Shown here: in pieces, positions 3,574-39,535 of the stretch
Layout: every line of letters begins with the position of its first letter
Numbering within the stretch: position 1 is the first letter of the stretch
Virus record (IMG/VR): IMGVR_UViG_3300037827_000415
Span: 1-64,000 of that record
Reading direction: 5' to 3' (one strand)
Length of the DNA: 64,000 nt
DNA from: a virus
Notes under the pieces: model-generated
Databases searched by the model: none
Seen by the model: only the letters and a program-made list of their open reading frames with translations
Told to the model about the DNA's origin: nothing
Translations under genes and position numbers: made by a program

Positions 3574-3592
3574 AAAAAGTCGAAAGGTCAAA
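3574..3592 (+). repeat. Start-associated motif AAAAAGTCGAAAGGTCAA (representative copy)
   Basis: Copies at 3284, 3574, 3805, 7772, 8406 and 10071, each a few nt before an ATG, plus one at 31784. Confidence 0.85.
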
Positions 3593-3784: not shown

Positions 3785-3823
3785 TCCGTTCTCTTTCCCC
3801 CACCAAAAAGTCGAAAGGTCAAA

Positions 3824-7792: not shown

Positions 7793-8999
7793 ATGGCAAA
7801 GAGAGAAATCCCGGTCGGGTCGCCCAATTCGATCGCACGCTACATCGCGAACACAGACTTCGGAGAAAACGGGTTCGCGACCTTTGCGTACCACGAAGGG
7901 ATGCCTCATGTCGTCGCGGCCGGCACCTACATGCATTGCATGGCCTACATGCAGCCCGGCTATTGCATTGTGGACGTGAAACGAGTCTGGATCGTCTGGC
8001 CGACTCGCGATCGCTTCACCGGAGAACTGGCCGAAGCCTATCCGGCACCGGAGTCCACGTAGCAATGCTGACCAAACAACACGTCGAAGAATTGCGAAAA
8101 CTGTTCTGCAAAACCACTCCCGGCATGTGGTCCGCCGATACGATTCAGGTTCGCGAAAACCGCTCGGCATACCGCGTGATGACGAATGCGAAGAGTCAGC
8201 CGATCTTCGATACGCTGAATAGCGAAGTTGCGGAAATCCATGAGGATGACGACTGCTACCGATGGGATGAAACTGGCCGGAACGATTTTGCATGGATTGA
8301 GCGAGTTCACAACGACTTTCCGGCAATTTTGCGGACGATCACGAATCTGATCGAAAAGGTCGCCGAACTGGAAGTGTTGCGTTCCGACAAATAATCAGGG
8401 TTCACAAAAAGTCGAAAGGTCAACCATGTCTCAAATCACTTCGCCCCTTTCCGCCGCCGAAATTCGCGGCATCAAGTGGGTTTTCCGTTGCTCCGACGTT
8501 CGCCTGACTGGCGACGTCGTTGAGGGCTACAGGCCGTTTGTCATGCTCGGCGTGTGCGGCGATTGGAAACCGCTGGGGAGCGTCGAATCCGTATTGCGGC
8601 GAGTCAAGGCGACGGTTGCGGCTCATGGCGGTTATTGCCCGTAGAAAGGATTCTGAGATGTGCGGCTATCCACTGCCTGACGGGCTCAAGTTGCTGGACT
8701 GTGAAGCCGGACGGTGCGACCACTGCGACGAACAGGCCGGGATTAGGGCGTTTGGGCTCGACTGGTGCCCAACTTGCTGGGACGAACTCTGTGAAGCCCG
8801 TCGCGGTTGTGGCTGCTCCGAATTTTGCGATCACACGATTGCCGAACTGGGCTGCTATTCAGTGTTCGGTCGCTTCCGGCCTCCGCCGCGGCCAATCGAG
8901 CCCGACCCGGTTGACGAGTATTACGACGAGCCAGGCGGCGGCTGGGACCAAGCGTGCGAGCGGGCCGATCTTCAACGCAAACGAGCGAAGGGAGAATAA
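7793..8999 (+). other. Small-gene cluster 2, part 1 (7793-8062, 8065-8394, 8426-8644, 8658-8999)
   Basis: Closely spaced ORFs; two are preceded by the start-associated motif; the last is Cys-rich. Confidence 0.65.
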
Positions 9000-30622: not shown

Positions 30623-30913
30623 CTATCGCCGTCGCCCCTCGCTGATCTCTTCCGCCAAATCAATCTGGTCAATCCGCCGAATGACGTGCCGGAACCAAGC
30701 GGAAATCAGTTCGCACCGCGGCCCCATATCCTCCGGCCCGCAAAACGTCTCGTACGCCCGCTCAAAGACGAAACTGATGTTCCGCTTCGGATCCGCAATC
30801 GTGATGATCACCACGGGCGGATTGCCGCAGCACCACGACCTGACCTTGAAGCCGCGATCGGCGACCCGCTCCCGCAGGTGCAGGAATCGGGCCTCGCACT
30901 CTTCGTTGGTCAT
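30623..30913 (-). CDS. Hypothetical protein
   Basis: ATG 30913 downstream of a TTGACT promoter-like site at the IS junction. Confidence 0.55.
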   Translation of the reverse strand: MTNEECEARFLHLRERVADRGFKVRSWCCGNPPVVIITIADPKRNISFVFERAYETFCGPEDMGPRCELISAWFRHVIRRIDQIDLAEEISEGRRR

Positions 30914-31155
30914 GTCCGCACCGTACCGAATCTGCCGTGGGCGAGTCAAATTTTTTCGGAATTGTATACTTAACAAACCAAGCCAAGAAGGCAGATTGAC
31001 AGGCCAAAACAGCGCAACTTATGATGCTGCATGAGGTTTCGTTGTGGCATCACGACCAGAATTCATCAAAGATATTCGGGAACACGTCGGCCGGCTTTGT
31101 TCGTCGATTGATCGCGAACTCGTCGACGAAACTCAGCGTTTTTGCGACTGGTGGG

Positions 31156-31479
31156 TCAACTGCTACAAGCCGGATTCCACCTTGCAACCAAGTCGCCCAC
31201 CTCGGCGAGACGTTCCCGCTCATCGCCCCGATTGATGCGGGCTAAGATGTGGGTGGCCCCTTTCGCGATCGCGGCAGACTTTATGTCGCTCTCCCGCGTG
31301 CAGCAGTCTCTGAGCGAATCGCCTTGCCCAAAATAAAGCGATTCCCAGTGGCCCGGTTTCCATTCGAGTGCGAAAGCGAAGTTTCCCGGCTCATCGGCAA
31401 ACTCGTTGTCTAGCGGGTAAATCCAGTACTCATATTCCCTTCCGGATTCGCCCGGATAAATAACCACCGGTATAAGCAT
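31156..31479 (-). CDS. Degenerate GIY-YIG-like protein (IS passenger)
   Basis: PGNFAF...LYFGQGDSL...E.DL...NP.C pattern. Confidence 0.55.
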   Translation of the reverse strand: MLIPVVIYPGESGREYEYWIYPLDNEFADEPGNFAFALEWKPGHWESLYFGQGDSLRDCCTRESDIKSAAIAKGATHILARINRGDERERLAEVGDLVARWNPACSS

Positions 31480-31491
31480 TGAGCCGGGCCG

Positions 31492-31659
31492 TCACTTCTT
31501 CTTTTTCGTCCGCCGCTTTGCCTTCGCCTTAGGCTGGGGGACCGGCTCGGTACTAGCCCCGCCCGGCACTTGCAGGAACTTTTCGAGAGCGGTCTCGAAA
31601 GGCAGCGGGTGAAGAGAGATTTTCTTGCCGCGATCGGATTCCGGTTCCGGTTTCGTCAT
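31492..31659 (-). CDS. 55-aa basic protein (IS passenger)
   Basis: MTKPEPESDRGKKISLHPLPFETALEKFLQV...KAKRRTKKKK; below the ORF-track cutoff. Confidence 0.55.
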   Translation of the reverse strand: MTKPEPESDRGKKISLHPLPFETALEKFLQVPGGASTEPVPQPKAKAKRRTKKKK

Positions 31660-31715
31660 GCCGGCGATTGTAGCCGAAGGGGACGGATTGAATCCAATTT
31701 TTCGCCGCGCATCCC

Positions 31716-31744
31716 TTGACGCGCAAATGGGGCAGATCTAGGCT
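31716..31744 (+). promoter_or_regulatory. Sigma70-like promoter of the IS-borne RNA unit
   Basis: TTGACG-N17-TAGGCT. Confidence 0.6.
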
Positions 31745-31758
31745 GCCCGCAGTGCGGT

Positions 31759-31868
31759 AAAAAACCGCGTTTGATTCTGAGCGAAAGTCGAAAGGTCAAC
31801 ACGCTTGAGGCGTTCCCGAGCCTCAGGCGTGCCTTTACGTCTTGGCTCGGGATTGAACGCGGTTTTTT
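31759..31868 (+). ncRNA. Long hairpin leader RNA ending in a U-tract
   Basis: 31759-31782 pairs with 31845-31868 (24 bp including G.U); inner stem CACGCTTGAGGC/GCCTCAGGCGTG. Confidence 0.6.
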
Positions 31869-31905
31869 CGTTTCTAGAAGTGAGTTTTGCGGAGAGAAGA
31901 AAAAC

Positions 31906-32005
31906 GCCGGGGTGGCGGAATTGGTAGACGCATCGGCCTTGGAAGCCGACGGGGGCCTCTTGCTAAGGGATCACCCCCGTGCGGGTTCAAATCCCGTCCC
32001 CGGCA
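31906..32005 (+). tRNA. Atypical tRNA: anticodon TGG (Pro) on a class II, Leu-like body
   Basis: Acceptor GCCGGGG/CCCCGGC+A73; D arm GGCGGAATTGGTAGACGC; anticodon arm TCGGC-CTTGGAA-GCCGA; 31-nt variable arm; T arm GCGGG-TTCAAAT-CCCGT; CCA not encoded. Confidence 0.9.
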
Positions 32006-32145
32006 TTCTCATTGTAAAATGCGAGAACCGTCAGCGGCAAACTGACGGTTCTCCTGTTCGCCGTTAGGGGGCGAACCATGCCGTAAAGTCGCGCGCATGG
32101 TACCGCTCTCGGTTTTGACACACAAGACAAAACGGGACCGGGGCC

Positions 32146-32616
32146 ATGCCTCTCGTGAAATGCCGCGATTGCGGATATTTAGCTTCGCGCATCAAGGCTG
32201 ACAATTCGCCCGTGGAGGCGGTCAGTCGCGTTCGCGATGCGGGACAATTTAGTCTTCAAGAATCAAGAGAAGTTCTGTGTTACAGGGGCTTTTCTGGCTT
32301 TCCGGTCAACGGGACGCTAACAGATCGGCCGCTGGCAGTTGCTCTTGAAAAAGAAATCGCATGTCCTGAATTCACGGTTTGGCTCAAGGGCAAAACGCCA
32401 AAAGAGCACGAAGACATGAGCATCTTAGAAAAGGTACGGCAGGAATATAGACAGTCCCAAGAGGATGCCGAGCGGAAGGCAGACCAAAAGGCAGACGCGA
32501 GGGAACGCAAAGAGGACTCACGCCACTGGCGCACGTTTTGGCTAGCGGTCGCGGCCCTAGTCGCCTCCATTGCGATCGGCATTGCGAATTTCGCGTTCAC
32601 GCTATCGAGACGCTAA
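32146..32616 (+). CDS. Zn-ribbon protein with C-terminal TM (IS passenger)
   Basis: N-terminal CRDC; C-terminal FWLAVAALVASIAIGIANFAF. Confidence 0.65.
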   Translation: MPLVKCRDCGYLASRIKADNSPVEAVSRVRDAGQFSLQESREVLCYRGFSGFPVNGTLTDRPLAVALEKEIACPEFTVWLKGKTPKEHEDMSILEKVRQEYRQSQEDAERKADQKADARERKEDSRHWRTFWLAVAALVASIAIGIANFAFTLSRR

Positions 32617-32622
32617 TTCGCC

Positions 32623-33591
32623 TCACTGAATCCCGCCCCACAACTGATCGATGCCATCTCGCAGAATTGGCTGGCGATACATGAGACGTCGGCCAGCAAT
32701 GCCGTTGATTGCGACGTCCATTCGCTGCGAGTCCTTCATCTTTCGATTGTTCCAGCGGAAGCTGAATTCATCGACGTAGCGATGCAGGTGACGCTTGCCA
32801 ATCTGGTGGAACGTGCCGTAGTGACCACGCTTGAGCAACGCGAAAAAGCTTTCGGCCGTATTCGTCGTCACGAGCGTTTCGCCACCATTCGTCCTGCGGA
32901 CGTATTCACGCTGCTTGTGCAACGAGCGGTGATGGCCACCGGCAAACTCGCGGCCGACGTGGTTATAGAGCGGCACTTCATCGGTGAACAAAGTCGAGTT
33001 GCGATCGGCGTATTTGAACAACACTTCTCGCAGCGTCGATCCTTTCAGATCGTCAACCGGCGTTGCGTGGGCTCGGCCGCCACGTTCCACGAGCAACGCC
33101 ACTGCTTTTTTTGATGTGCCGCGTCCCGCCTTGCTGACGCCCCTGTACCGGGGCTTGCCGCCGACGTAAGTTTCGTCTGCTTCCAGCTCGCCCTTCAACG
33201 CTCCGGCCAGTGGCTCTTGCTTCATCGCGTACCGAATGCGATGGGCCATGAACCATGCGGTTTTGTAGGTCACGCCGAGCATCCGATGGAGCTGATGGGC
33301 CGACACTCCCTTTTTGCTCGCGGACATCAAATGCAGGGCCAGCAGCCAAATGCGAATCTTGATGTGCCCGCGTTCCATTACGGTTCCGACCGTCACCGTG
33401 AACTGCTTGCGGCACTTCGGATTCTTGCACTTGTAAACGCCGGGCCGCGTCGATTTTCCGGCCAGCTTGATCGACTCATTCGACATGCAATGCGGGCAGG
33501 CTCGACGCTCGCCATTCGCTCCCCAGCGGGTTGCCTCAAGATAATCGCGGGCCTCATCTTCTGTCAGCTTGCTGAGTTCGGCGAAATTCAT
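32623..33591 (-). CDS. IS1595-family (ISXO2-like) DDE transposase
   Basis: Zn ribbon CPHC..CKNPKC, HTH, EADETYVGG, TDE, TNTAESFF, YVDEFSFRWN. Confidence 0.95.
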   Translation of the reverse strand: MNFAELSKLTEDEARDYLEATRWGANGERRACPHCMSNESIKLAGKSTRPGVYKCKNPKCRKQFTVTVGTVMERGHIKIRIWLLALHLMSASKKGVSAHQLHRMLGVTYKTAWFMAHRIRYAMKQEPLAGALKGELEADETYVGGKPRYRGVSKAGRGTSKKAVALLVERGGRAHATPVDDLKGSTLREVLFKYADRNSTLFTDEVPLYNHVGREFAGGHHRSLHKQREYVRRTNGGETLVTTNTAESFFALLKRGHYGTFHQIGKRHLHRYVDEFSFRWNNRKMKDSQRMDVAINGIAGRRLMYRQPILRDGIDQLWGGIQ

Positions 33592-33665
33592 TGCGGGCTC
33601 CTTTGTTGACACCCGCATTATCGGTAATTACACTTGGTTTGTCAAGTATACAATTCCGAATTTTT

Positions 33666-35513
33666 TCAGTCGCCCAGTTCGTGCCCGTTCTTTTCCGCCC
33701 AATCGTCGCCGTCAAAGTCGAAGCTTGTGGCCGCACTGTCCATTGATGCCTCTGGCTTTTCCACGTGCAGTTTTTGCCGCGATGGCTCAAACCGGCATTT
33801 CACCGTGTGCTGATGCGTCGGCCGATTCTTGTTCTTCCCGATGAATACGAAGAATTCCTTTGGGTCGTGCTTCGCGTCGATCCGGTGCGGCCAAAGTAGG
33901 AATAAGATCACATCCGCGTCGCCCTCAATCTGCCCCGACTCACGAAGGTCCGACAGCTTTGGCTTGAACGTCTCCCGCTTCTCGACTTCTCGGCCAAGCT
34001 GGGCCAGTTCGATCATCAGCACTCCGGTTTCCGTGGCGATGTGCTTGAGCATCAGGCTGGTTTCGGTGACTTGCTCGTAGCGGCTGTTTTTCTTGCCGAG
34101 CAGCAGTTGCATGTAGTCCACGACTACGCAGCGAACGCCGTGATCGCGAACGTGCTGGCGGATCGACTCGCAGGCCCGTTGCGGCGTGCCGCAGTTCTCG
34201 ACGACGTAAATCGGGGCTCGCTCGTGAAAGTGGCCGTCCACGTCCTTGAGCACGTCCTCGGAACGGTGAACCCACGCCTCTTCATTGATCGGGGTTGAAT
34301 ACTGGATCGCCCGTTTGCCCAGCATTAGGCGGGACATTTCGTCTGAGATGATTAGGATCGGGTGTCCCTCTCCGGCAATGTTGTACGCCGCTTGAAGTGC
34401 GGTAGCCGATTTTGCATGGCTCGGCCTCGCCGCGATGATGACCACCTCCGGCGGCTGCACCCCGCCGCCGATGGCATAATCCACATCACCCAATCCAAGG
34501 CTGATGAGCCCTTGCTTCCCGTCCTTCAGGCTGGCCATGTATTCGCGGGCCGACTCGTACAGCGTGTTGGACGGCGGCGGTTCAGGCGGTGCCTCGTGCT
34601 GCGGGACTCTAACCCGGTCCCACTGCATCGGCTGGACGTTTTTTAAGTACCCTCGCTCTCCAGGCACCTTGTCGGCCTGCGAAAGTTTGTGGCGAATCTC
34701 CCGCTCGTTCCACGGCGGATCGCACAGATTGGACCACTCTGCCATGACCGCGTAGGCGTCAGGCTCAGTCAGGTCGAACCCGAGCATCAGCGTGCAGGCC
34801 ACGTGGAACGCCTTGTCGTGTCCCTTCTGTCCGCTCACCGCGATCGGCATCCGGGCGACGTACTTCCGGGCTCGTTCGACGATTGCCGGCTGGCCGTAGA
34901 AGTCTGTCGGGGCTGGTGACCCAAGAGTTTGCGGCTTGAACCACTCGGCACAATAGCGATTCAGGACCGCTTGCCGCTCCATCGGTTCTTTGGGGAACTT
35001 GCCCACTCGCTTGCCCGTGACGGCGAAGTATCGCAGATGGTCGTAGACTTCGATGCCCGGCTCTTTCTCGCCGACCGTGGCGACGCCTTCGACTTTGATT
35101 TTCTTGCCGGAGTCCATCGGGGCTTTCGCCCGAATGAACATTTTCGCCCCCGTGCCGCTGGGGCTGAGTTCGGTGTATGTGTTGAAGTCCGACATGATTT
35201 GCCGAGCCCAGTCGGCCCACTCGCCGGTTTCGAGGTTGCGGCAACCGTCCAGGTCGATGCCGCAGAATTCGTCTTCCGCGGTGAAGACGAATCCGATGCC
35301 CGACCATCGGCCGGTGATCCGATTGGCCGTGACGGCGGATTTGAAGTTGCACCAAGTCTGCGGATCATTCGACTTGGCTAACTGGCCAGAGAACACGCTG
35401 TATGGGAGCTTTGTCGGCTTGTCGCCGTCGCGGGTCACGATTGTCCAGACCAGCCACTGACGAAGTTCCTGTAACGCTGTCGGCACGCCTTCGGGACAGA
35501 CCTGGATCAGCAT
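33666..35513 (-). CDS. Primase-polymerase (AEP-like) fused to DnaB-like helicase
   Basis: GIDLDGC and ELSPSGTG at the N-terminus; VVDYMQL, AQLGR, SDLRESGQIEGDAD at the C-terminus. Confidence 0.9.
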   Translation of the reverse strand: MLIQVCPEGVPTALQELRQWLVWTIVTRDGDKPTKLPYSVFSGQLAKSNDPQTWCNFKSAVTANRITGRWSGIGFVFTAEDEFCGIDLDGCRNLETGEWADWARQIMSDFNTYTELSPSGTGAKMFIRAKAPMDSGKKIKVEGVATVGEKEPGIEVYDHLRYFAVTGKRVGKFPKEPMERQAVLNRYCAEWFKPQTLGSPAPTDFYGQPAIVERARKYVARMPIAVSGQKGHDKAFHVACTLMLGFDLTEPDAYAVMAEWSNLCDPPWNEREIRHKLSQADKVPGERGYLKNVQPMQWDRVRVPQHEAPPEPPPSNTLYESAREYMASLKDGKQGLISLGLGDVDYAIGGGVQPPEVVIIAARPSHAKSATALQAAYNIAGEGHPILIISDEMSRLMLGKRAIQYSTPINEEAWVHRSEDVLKDVDGHFHERAPIYVVENCGTPQRACESIRQHVRDHGVRCVVVDYMQLLLGKKNSRYEQVTETSLMLKHIATETGVLMIELAQLGREVEKRETFKPKLSDLRESGQIEGDADVILFLLWPHRIDAKHDPKEFFVFIGKNKNRPTHQHTVKCRFEPSRQKLHVEKPEASMDSAATSFDFDGDDWAEKNGHELGD

Positions 35514-39174: not shown

Positions 39175-39277
39175 TGTGCCTTTGCTCCTGTTCGATGTGA
39201 AAGAAAAACTGCGGCCAAAATTGTCCCTGACCGCAGGTCGCGGCACGTCCAACAAGGATGCCCGCTTTCCCGAGATT

Positions 39278-39380
39278 CGTCACCGGCGGGGATCGAACCC
39301 GCATCACACGGTTGAGTTTGCACCCGGTTTCCCGGAGGTTTCTCCATGGCCGTGCATCCTACCAGTTAGACGAAAGTGAC
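39278..39380 (-). tRNA. tRNA-Glu-like RNA with a 38-nt anticodon loop
   Basis: GTCACTT/CGGTGAC+G; D stem GTCT/GGAT; anticodon stem CACGG/CCGTG; 4-nt variable loop; T arm GCGGG-TTCGATC-CCCGC. Confidence 0.75.
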
Positions 39381-39443
39381 GACGCTCATTTTTATCGCGA
39401 CCAATTGCGGGGTGAACGAGCAAACCCAGTCACGCTTTCAATT

Positions 39444-39535
39444 AGTTTCCGGCTGGAGTCGAACCAGCACCTCACTCAATGACCACCGGATTCTCACCCG
39501 GATCGGCGTGCGTGCACCACTGGCACTACGGAAAC
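39444..39535 (-). tRNA. tRNA-like RNA with a 28-nt anticodon loop (isotype unassignable)
   Basis: GTTTCCG/CGGAAAC; D stem GTGC/GCAC; anticodon stem CACGC/GAGTG (one mismatch); T arm GCTGG-TTCGACT-CCAGC. Confidence 0.7.

What the first reader, a model, noticed from the sequence alone, without database searches (positions are those of the whole stretch)
30949..33666. Complete IS1595-family element that carries a tRNA transcription unit
Seen: 26-bp TIRs (one mismatch) and an exact 8-bp TSD enclose an intact transposase, three small CDSs and a promoter-hairpin-tRNA unit pointing towards the transposase. Established: IS1595 members make 8-bp TSDs and some carry protein passengers. I do not recall tRNA passengers being described. 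Inference: this is a recent insertion that mobilises an atypical tRNA together with small proteins, possibly an addiction or defence-like module.
Basis: partly seen in the sequence, partly recalled or inferred. Interest (0 to 1): 0.78.

Follow-up and report, generated by a model that had tools for sequence, protein, structure and literature searches.

The report
Jumping gene carrying a code-bending tRNA
A soil phage carries an intact 2.7-kb jumping gene whose cargo includes a tRNA built like a leucine tRNA but reading a proline codon, and the jumping gene's own transposase keeps that codon at two fixed spots, so the element seems to translate part of its own gene with a private adaptor.

Summary
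The window carries a complete IS1595-family element: 26-nt inverted ends with one mismatch, an exact 8-bp duplication (AATTTTTT), an intact transposase, and 1.7 kb of cargo. It sits between two replication genes of a complete 82.9-kb phage. Contigs from four other studies reproduce parts of it and both junctions, so misassembly is unlikely.

The tRNA is real (Rfam tRNA 60 bits against a cut-off of 29). ARAGORN misses it because the variable arm is 31 nt. Its body is leucine-type (A73, Leu D arm, long arm) and its anticodon is UGG (proline).

The transposase's nearest relatives carry the same kind of tRNA. In 19 of 22 carriers, a fixed codon near the transposase C-terminus is the exact complement of the cargo anticodon. 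This holds over six anticodon types: UGG/CCA, CGG/CCG, AGG/CCT, CUA/TAG, UUA/TAA and CCU/AGG. Here the only two CCA codons of the gene are P136 and P317.

Best reading: the cargo tRNA decodes dedicated codons of its own transposase, probably as leucine. The purpose is unknown. The defence or addiction idea found no support. One cargo protein has a GIY-YIG nuclease fold.

I found no published description. This scan has reported the same class before on other DNA.

The parts
30949..30956 (.). left target-site duplication AATTTTTT
   Evidence: Identical 8-mer at 33659-33666, directly outside the TIRs.
30957..30982 (+). left terminal inverted repeat
   Evidence: Inverted repeat I1, 96% complementary to 33633-33660. 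The same end motif (GGnAATTrTATACTTGACAAA) flanks about 100 related elements.
30996..31025 (+). inward-facing promoter-like site (TTGACA-18-TATGAT) before a doubtful small ORF (31021-31245)
   Evidence: 11 of 12 consensus matches. The ORF has no family hit and no relative.
31156..31479 (-). orf107, a small GIY-YIG-fold cargo protein
   Evidence: AF2 pLDDT 87. The top nine Foldseek hits are all UvrC GIY-YIG domains, and a profile search of PDB finds UvrC at E 0.16. Homologues sit as cargo in L095, L011 and L040. One relative has 82% identity.
31492..31659 (-). orf55, a small basic ORF just upstream of orf107; coding status unproven
   Evidence: ORF list. No family hit.
31759..31868 (.). 110-nt hairpin flanked by A6 and T6, resembling a two-way terminator or insulator; contains a 17-mer also found before phage start codons
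   Evidence: Inverted repeat I3. The 17-mer at 31784-31800 is identical to 8408-8424 and matches 3576 and 3807 at 16 of 17; 0.04 matches expected by chance.
31906..32005 (+). cargo tRNA: leucine-type class II body, anticodon UGG, 31-nt variable arm
   Evidence: RF00005 at 60 bits, E 8e-12. Own model R1 scores 80 bits. Family alignment A3 has 98% paired cells, and 18 of 20 pairs show compensatory changes. A73 is present in 31 of 32 family members.
32023..32053 (.). perfect 12-bp hairpin after the tRNA
   Evidence: Inverted repeat I13.
32146..32616 (+). orf156, an orphan ORF with a C-terminal membrane helix, convergent with the transposase
   Evidence: ORF list. The only database match is to itself. 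Other hits are weak and cover the membrane-helix region only.
32623..33618 (-). IS1595-family DDE transposase, intact
   Evidence: The best relative among 1.84 billion representatives has 56% identity.
32668..32670 (-). CCA codon for residue 317 (motif GRRLMYRQ-P), the complement of the cargo anticodon
   Evidence: Alignment column 498; 19 of 22 carriers match their own tRNA here.
33211..33213 (-). CCA codon for residue 136 (domain linker), the second matched site
   Evidence: Alignment column 256. These two are the gene's only CCA codons among 9 Pro codons.
33617..33645 (-). transposase promoter-like site, with its -35 box inside the right TIR
   Evidence: TTGACA-17-GATAAT, 11 of 12 matches.
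33633..33658 (-). right terminal inverted repeat
33659..33666 (.). right target-site duplication AATTTTTT

Best explanation
This is an intact IS1595-family 'transporter' insertion sequence sitting in a phage genome.

Shown:
- It has TIRs, an 8-bp TSD and an intact DDE transposase.
- Its cargo tRNA is a well-formed, conserved class II tRNA with leucine-type features and the proline anticodon UGG.
- The nearest relatives of the transposase carry homologous tRNAs.
- The codon at a fixed C-terminal site of the transposase covaries with the cargo anticodon. In the proline-anticodon group, a codon in the linker between the DNA-binding and catalytic domains covaries too.

Inferred:
- The tRNA is expressed and charged with leucine. 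LeuRS does not read the anticodon, which is also why such a body can carry any anticodon.
- It decodes the two dedicated CCA codons of its own transposase mRNA (P136, P317) in competition with the host's tRNA-Pro. That would yield a Leu-containing isoform, or a read-through isoform in the stop-codon variants.
- This would be recoding programmed by an element-borne tRNA. It resembles the programmed frameshifting of IS1 and IS3 and the suppressor tRNAs of recoded phages.

What the isoform does (activity, regulation, or holding on to the cargo) is not known.
For: Element anatomy.

tRNA. The D arm is identical to that of bacterial tRNA-Leu, and A73 with G1-C72 is present.

Recurrence: Leu-type tRNAs lie inside the TIRs or next to the transposase in L008, L010, L022, L055, L086, L141, L165, L169, L173, L226, L260, L261, L263, L271, L274, L252 and L299. 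OWN clusters with carriers L274 and L022 (SH-aLRT 92).

Covariation:
- UGG carriers have CCA at the C-terminal site.
- CGG carriers have CCG at both sites; these are their only 2 CCG codons among 7 Pro codons.
- AGG carriers have CCT at both sites; these are the only 2 CCT codons among 15 and 13 Pro codons.
- The CUA carrier has TAG, the UUA carrier TAA and the CCU carrier AGG at that site.

At the two sites, 20 of 24 codons are cognate. At conserved-proline columns, 1 of 29 is cognate.

Leucine is a native residue at this site in 13 of 64 family representatives with the motif, second after Pro with 15.
Against: - There is no evidence of expression or charging. RNA-library contigs hold the region, but as part of a 50-kb contig, so this is probably DNA.
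- Both sites lie in coil regions of the model.
- Sixteen tRNA-less relatives encode Pro (CCT) at the C-terminal site, so proline is probably tolerated there and the benefit of leucine is unclear.
- Three carriers break the rule: L299 (site codon TAT), L166 and L042.
- Leu-type UGG tRNAs also occur in phage contigs with no transposase nearby, so decoding the transposase cannot be their only role.
- No canonical promoter was found for the tRNA.
Confidence: 0.65

Rival explanations
1. Codon supplement. The tRNA is charged with proline by ProRS, which reads G35 and G36. It simply supplies a decoder for a rare CCA codon so that the transposase is made in any host.
For: The anticodon is UGG with A73. 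CCA is fairly rare in this phage, at 9.6 per 1000 codons. The matched codons are often A- or T-ending in GC-rich contexts.
Against: The same body type carries stop (UUA, CUA), Arg (CCU) and Gly (GCC) anticodons, so the shared feature is the Leu-type body and not proline. The acceptor has G1-C72 instead of the C1-G72 used by bacterial ProRS (established knowledge). The cognate codon is avoided at conserved prolines, 1 of 29. CCG is matched in CGG carriers although it is not a rare codon in general.
Confidence: 0.1
2. Host-directed or phage-directed cargo. The tRNA mainly acts on the cell, for example by proteome-wide Pro-to-Leu mistranslation, as a decoy for tRNA-cleaving defences, or as a toxin-like addiction factor. 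The transposase codons merely tolerate it.
For: Leu-type UGG tRNAs occur free-standing in phage contigs. The element persists in the phage across samples. Allo-tRNAs have been reported near toxin-antitoxin loci (PMC5389517).
Against: Tolerance alone does not predict that the cognate codon would be kept at one fixed site across six anticodon types. No defence or toxin-antitoxin family was detected in the cargo.
Confidence: 0.12
3. Non-decoding RNA-RNA contact. The anticodon loop pairs with the triplet in the mRNA, as a T-box specifier does, to regulate the transposase without translation of that codon by this tRNA.
For: In the proteobacterial relatives, the site sits in a nucleotide-conserved context, TAT CGG CGG NYT GGT GAA GCC. 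This hints at an RNA-level element.
Against: Complementarity does not extend beyond 3-4 nt here (read from the sequence). The site is inside a reading frame. Stop-codon variants with open extensions fit decoding better.
Confidence: 0.04
4. Decaying hitch-hiker. A captured host tRNA-Leu gene has mutated in its anticodon and has no function.
For: UGG is one change from the Leu anticodon UAG. ARAGORN rejects the gene.
Against: 98% of stem cells are paired, with compensatory changes in 18 of 20 pairs across 32 homologues. The tRNA recurs in distant elements and its anticodon covaries with the site codon.
Confidence: 0.03

Closest known systems
IS1595-family 'transporter' insertion sequences with passenger genes (ISNwi1-type; Siguier, Gagnevin and Chandler 2009, from my own knowledge)
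   Same: DDE transposase with an N-terminal zinc ribbon, short TIRs, an 8-bp AT-rich TSD, and 1-3 kb of cargo downstream of the transposase.
   Different: As far as I know and could search, the passengers described so far are proteins. Here the cargo includes a tRNA whose anticodon matches dedicated codons of the transposase gene.
Allo-tRNAs and irregular tRNA polycistrons (Mukai et al. 2017, PMC5389517)
   Same: Natural long-arm tRNAs whose anticodon does not fit their aminoacylation identity. Some lie near mobile or toxin-antitoxin genes.
   Different: Allo-tRNAs have 8/4 or 9/3 acceptor/T stems and serine identity. This tRNA has a 7/5 structure, A73 and a Leu-type D arm. That paper describes no IS1595 cargo and no matched codons.
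Nematode nev-tRNAs and the Streptomyces tRNA-ProA/ProX family (PMC10404621; review PMC11415595)
   Same: Genome-encoded tRNAs expected to insert an amino acid that the codon does not specify. The nev-tRNAs are likewise Leu-type bodies with non-Leu anticodons.
   Different: Those are chromosomal. They are not carried by a transposon and are not paired with dedicated codons in a neighbouring gene.
Suppressor tRNAs of stop-codon-recoded phages (from my own knowledge)
   Same: A mobile element brings its own tRNA so that codons in its own genes are read differently from the host's code.
   Different: There, many late genes carry in-frame stops. Here a 2.7-kb insertion sequence has one or two dedicated codons, and in this copy they are sense (proline) codons.
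Programmed ribosomal frameshifting in IS1 and IS3 transposases (review PMC5009743)
   Same: An insertion sequence uses recoding to make or tune its transposase.
   Different: That is a cis-acting slippery site, with no element-borne tRNA.

Membership tests
IS1595 family insertion sequence | DDE transposase of the IS1595/ISXO2 type with an N-terminal zinc ribbon | tested here: met
   PF12762 at 7.7e-33 and PF12760 at 3.4e-10. NF033547 at 180 bits against a cut-off of 75.
IS1595 family insertion sequence | terminal inverted repeats and an 8-bp target-site duplication | tested here: met
   26-nt TIRs with one mismatch and an exact AATTTTTT duplication. About 100 relatives show the same end motif, and most of those with a TSD have 8 bp.
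IS1595 family insertion sequence | other copies with different flanks, as evidence of mobility | tested here: not met
   The phage holds a single copy. No copy above 56% protein identity was found in genome, viral or metagenome contigs or in 1.84 billion proteins. Mobility is inferred from the TSD and from relatives.
tRNA (Rfam RF00005) | cloverleaf scoring above the family's gathering threshold | tested here: met
   60 bits against 29, matching model positions 1-71 in full.
tRNA (Rfam RF00005) | stems supported by compensatory changes in homologues | tested here: met
   Alignment A3 has 98.1% paired cells, 18 of 20 pairs with changes on both sides, and 0 of 500 shuffles as high. The alignment was fitted to the model.
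bacterial tRNA-Leu | A73, a class II long variable arm and a Leu-type D arm (E. coli LeuRS identity set, from established knowledge) | tested here: met
   A73 is present. The D arm GTGGCGGAATTGGTAGACGC equals that of chromosomal and phage tRNA-Leu.
bacterial tRNA-Leu | a leucine anticodon (NAG or YAA) | tested here: not met
   The anticodon loop is CUUGGAA, giving UGG.
bacterial tRNA-Leu | charged by LeuRS | not testable with these tools
   Needs an aminoacylation assay.
bacterial tRNA-Pro | class I body with C1-G72 | tested here: not met
   31-nt variable arm and G1-C72. Only the anticodon fits.
allo-tRNA (Mukai 2017) | 8/4 or 9/3 acceptor/T-stem geometry and serine identity (G73) | tested here: not met
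   7-bp acceptor stem, 5-bp T stem and A73.
GIY-YIG nuclease superfamily (orf107) | GIY-YIG alpha/beta fold | tested here: met
   The nine best Foldseek hits are UvrC GIY-YIG domains, with probability 1.0 and TM 0.49-0.62, but E is only 8e-3.
GIY-YIG nuclease superfamily (orf107) | catalytic Tyr, Tyr, Arg, Glu and Asn set; Pfam match | tested here: inconclusive
   There is no Pfam hit. The YFG, R, E and N positions align, but the first Tyr is Phe in this copy and Tyr in the homologues.
toxin-antitoxin or anti-phage defence module | match to a known defence or toxin-antitoxin protein family | tested here: not met
   No PADLOC, Pfam, NCBIfam or PHROGs family matches orf55, orf107, orf156 or orf74.

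The most novel reading that the evidence does not exclude
A transposon with a private codon assignment. The insertion sequence carries a leucine-charged tRNA that re-reads CCA, nominally proline, at dedicated positions of its own transposase. Transposase function or regulation would then depend on the element's own adaptor. By riding in a phage, the element would spread a code-bending tRNA between cells.
Probability: 0.4. Interest if true: 0.9.

Novelty: new variant of a known kind. Interest (0 to 1): 0.8.

Why it matters
If the inference holds, this would be sense-codon recoding by a tRNA that an insertion sequence carries for its own gene. It would be a new way for mobile DNA to control a transposase, and a natural vehicle for spreading mistranslating or suppressor tRNAs among bacteria and phages.

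It is directly testable. The element is small. The prediction is simple: leucine at two named residues only when the tRNA is present. Natural variants with six different anticodon-codon pairs already exist as controls.

It also matters for annotation. Standard tRNA finders miss this gene or label it as tRNA-Pro.

Tried and rejected
- ARAGORN finds no tRNA in the window or in the whole phage. This is explained by the 31-nt variable arm.
- I looked for other copies of this exact element in the phage, genome contigs, viral contigs, metagenome contigs and 1.84 billion protein representatives. Nothing exceeded 56% identity.
- I looked for the empty site. The flanking DnaB-like gene has no relative in viral contigs, and no contig joins across the element.
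- Expression could not be shown. Two metatranscriptome runs hold the region, but one does so within a 50-kb contig, which points to DNA carry-over.
- I tested whether tRNA-less relatives hide a hairpin whose loop matches their site codon. They do not: 11 elements against 9.4 ± 2.7 in shuffles.
- I planned a prospective test on database representatives with Pro or Leu at the site. Substitute scans gave one confirmation, L285, which lies on the same contig as L274.
- A consensus promoter scan finds none for the tRNA.
- The MFE fold of the single sequence is not a cloverleaf (z = -1.8). I did not weigh this, because tRNAs often misfold in silico and the covariance evidence is strong.


Full report
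**Setting.** The window is the first 64 kb of an 82,866-bp IMG/VR virus record with direct terminal repeats, rated 100% complete. The finding lies between a DnaB-like helicase gene (33666-35513, minus strand; PF03796 at 6.8e-45) and a run of small genes followed by an SNF2-type helicase. The downstream 96-aa gene most likely starts at the ATG at 30913. The element therefore sits in a roughly 45-nt gap between two genes on the same strand. Genome GC is 58.7% and the element's is 55.9%.

**The element is real.**
- AATTTTTT occurs at 30949-30956 and again at 33659-33666, directly outside 26-nt inverted repeats that differ at one position.
- The 331-aa transposase matches the IS1595 DDE domain, its zinc ribbon and the NCBIfam IS1595 model.
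- It aligns full-length with 83 homologues and keeps the nearly invariant acidic residues D148, D213 and E256.
- It folds with mean pLDDT 91.
- A promoter-like site (TTGACA-17-GATAAT) has its -35 box inside the right TIR.
- About 100 of 160 related loci show the same end motif (GGnAATTATATACTTGACAAA), element lengths of 1.8-4.9 kb and mostly AT-rich 8-bp duplications. The whole clade therefore carries cargo downstream of the transposase. From memory, this corresponds to the ISNwi1-type 'transporter' group of IS1595.

**Assembly check.** Logan contigs from four further runs in four studies (soil RNA library, leaf litter, root, and a 2025 sample) match the stretch at 100% identity. A 50.5-kb contig crosses the left junction. 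Contigs of 952 nt and 447 nt cross the right junction. No contig skips the element. Misassembly is therefore unlikely, and the insertion looks fixed in this phage lineage and not fresh. The contigs give no evidence of transcription.

**The tRNA.**
- ARAGORN reports nothing. Rfam's tRNA model scores 60 bits (E 8e-12, threshold 29) over its full length, with a 28-nt insertion in the variable region.
- The anticodon loop is CUUGGAA, so the anticodon is UGG.
- The rest is leucine-type: a D arm identical to chromosomal and phage tRNA-Leu, G1-C72, A73 and a long variable arm of 31 nt.
- It is the only Rfam-level tRNA in the window.
- In a model-fitted alignment of 32 homologues, 98.1% of stem cells pair and 18 of 20 pairs show changes on both sides. 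No shuffle or slid control comes close. A73 is kept in 31 of 32.
- This is a maintained tRNA and not a decaying copy.

**Recurrence.** No near-identical copy of the element exists in any collection searched; the best transposase relative has 56% identity. Among the nearest relatives, however, Leu-type tRNAs with non-Leu anticodons are common. They usually lie just downstream of the transposase on the opposite strand, and inside the TIRs wherever both ends could be found.

| Anticodon | Loci |
|---|---|
| UGG | L010, L022, L173, L261, L263, L274, L260, L271, L252 |
| CGG | L008, L165 |
| AGG | L086, L169 |
| CCU | L055 |
| UUA | L141 |
| CUA | L226 |
| GCC | L166 |

On a transposase tree, this copy groups with carriers L274 and L022 (SH-aLRT 92). 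Carriers are concentrated in the early-branching, non-proteobacterial part of the tree.

**Codon-anticodon match.** I tested this on 171 transposase genes.
- At the site three residues after the Tyr of the C-terminal motif G-[KR]-R-L-x-Y, the codon is the exact complement of the cargo anticodon in 19 of 22 carriers with a readable anticodon.
- The matches are CCA with UGG, CCG with CGG, CCT with AGG, TAG with CUA (followed by a 44-codon open extension), TAA with UUA, and AGG with CCU.
- In the proline-anticodon group, a second site in the linker before the catalytic domain matches as well.
- In this copy, the only two CCA codons among nine proline codons are P136 (33211-33213) and P317 (32668-32670).
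- In L008 and L165, the only two CCG codons of seven Pro codons are at these sites.
- In L086 and L169, the only two CCT codons of 15 and 13 Pro codons are at these sites.
- If the two cognate codons fell at random among the proline codons, three independent lineages alone would give about 1e-5.
- Across 12 proline-type carriers, 20 of 24 site codons are cognate. At the five conserved-proline columns, 1 of 29 is cognate.
- Exceptions are L299, a Planctomycetota chromosome with an adjacent convergent UGG tRNA and site codon TAT; L166, whose contig ends at its tRNAs; and L042, whose anticodon loop carries an insert.

**Meaning.** The simplest reading is that the cargo tRNA decodes these codons.
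- All variants share a Leu-type body.
- LeuRS does not use the anticodon (established knowledge).
- Bacterial ProRS prefers C1-G72, which is absent here.

The inserted residue is therefore most likely leucine. Avoidance of the cognate codon at conserved prolines fits that, as in codon reassignments.

The purpose is unclear:
- Both sites are in coil in the model.
- Homologues have T, I, S, A, P, L or V at the C-terminal site. Leucine is the second commonest residue among 50%-clustered representatives, with 13 cases against 15 for Pro.
- Sixteen tRNA-less relatives encode Pro there.

So I cannot claim that proline is harmful at this site. I can claim only that a codon read by the element's own tRNA is kept there. 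An isoform-producing, regulatory role seems the most natural, by analogy with programmed frameshifting in IS1 and IS3 and with the suppressor tRNAs of recoded phages. This remains an inference.

**Wider distribution.** A pattern scan of IMG/VR found 40 contigs with a Leu-type D arm followed by an NGG anticodon. A few of these are intron-bearing Leu tRNAs. Several of the intact Leu-type UGG tRNAs have no transposase or IS end within several kb. The tRNA family is therefore not confined to these elements. In 401 Planctomycetota genomes, the pattern occurs twice.

**Other cargo.**
- orf107 has a GIY-YIG fold: AF2 pLDDT 87, and the nine best Foldseek hits are UvrC N-terminal domains. It recurs as cargo in three related elements, and an 82%-identical fragment exists. 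Its first catalytic Tyr is Phe here.
- orf156 is an orphan with a C-terminal membrane helix.
- orf55 has no support beyond being open.
- No defence or toxin-antitoxin family matches any of them.
- The 110-nt hairpin upstream of the tRNA resembles a two-way terminator. It contains a 17-mer identical to a leader found just before three phage start codons.

**Literature and earlier notes.** Full-text searches found no description of tRNA passengers in IS1595 elements or of transposon-borne anticodon-swapped tRNAs. Mukai et al. 2017 report allo-tRNAs near toxin-antitoxin loci and one pseudogene overlapping a transposon-related ORF, but those tRNAs have different geometry and identity. This scan has reported the same class several times on other DNA. 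I re-tested the central claim here and it held, with three exceptions.

**Verdict.** The finding is an instance of an apparently unpublished class in which an insertion sequence carries a tRNA matched to codons of its own transposase.

Noticed in passing
window 39277-39380 and 39443-39535 (minus strand): Two neighbouring tRNA-shaped genes of the phage itself. Each has a good acceptor stem and T arm but an enlarged anticodon region. My Leu-type model scores them at 18 and 30 bits, Rfam's tRNA model does not reach E 1, and ARAGORN finds nothing.
   Followed up: partly
window 31784-31800; also 8408-8424, 3576-3592, 3807-3823: The 17-mer AAAGTCGAAAGGTCAAC inside the element's long hairpin is identical or 16 of 17 identical to a leader just before three phage start codons (0.04 matches expected by chance). 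The element and the phage share a translation-start-like motif.
   Followed up: partly
L012:6090-6160, L056:7072-7141, L063:7109-7183, L105:5977-6044, L135:6101-6168: Small (68-75 nt) tRNA-like genes inside related IS1595 elements, with a GGGGCU...CUCCA acceptor, G3:U70 and A73. This is an alanine-type, tmRNA-like acceptor. L012's has a UGG triplet in its loop, and the transposase site codon there is CCA.
   Followed up: partly
L055:5001-7193: A related element with three cargo tRNAs: Leu-type CCU, an Arg-like body with GCU, and a third odd one. Its transposase has an in-frame TAG at codon 20 as well as the matched AGG at the C-terminal site.
   Followed up: partly
transposase alignment column 498 in about 120 proteobacterial relatives (e.g. 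L025, L028, L095): With no detectable cargo tRNA, the site codon is almost always N-Y-T: ACT 43, ATT 38, CCT 16, GCT 11, TCT 7, with ACC, ACG and ATC nearly absent. It sits in a nucleotide-conserved context, TAT CGG CGG NYT GGT GAA GCC. The cause of this codon-level or RNA-level constraint is unknown.
   Followed up: partly
L042:8396-8512 and L268:774-883: Leu-type tRNAs with an insert of about 35 nt in the anticodon loop, which may be an intron or a disabled loop.
   Followed up: no
L248:4865-4949, L247:10930-11015, L255:6593-6679, L279:10003-10105, L281, L283, L267, L275/L277: Intact Leu-type tRNAs with a UGG anticodon in phage contigs, with no IS1595 transposase or IS end nearby. Neighbouring genes include a portal protein, an HTH protein and a DUF5131 protein.
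   Followed up: partly
L299 (Planctomycetota genome G114, contig 101, 53431-56460): A chromosomal IS1595 transposase (38% identity) with an adjacent, convergent Leu-type UGG tRNA with a long variable arm. The C-terminal site codon is TAT, and a conserved proline uses CCA. This is a counter-example to the matching rule.
   Followed up: yes
L293:6649-6736 and L286:6748-6839: Long-arm (88 and 92 nt) tRNAs called Ile(UAU) and Ala(UGC) by ARAGORN, lying near more distant IS1595 transposases.
   Followed up: no
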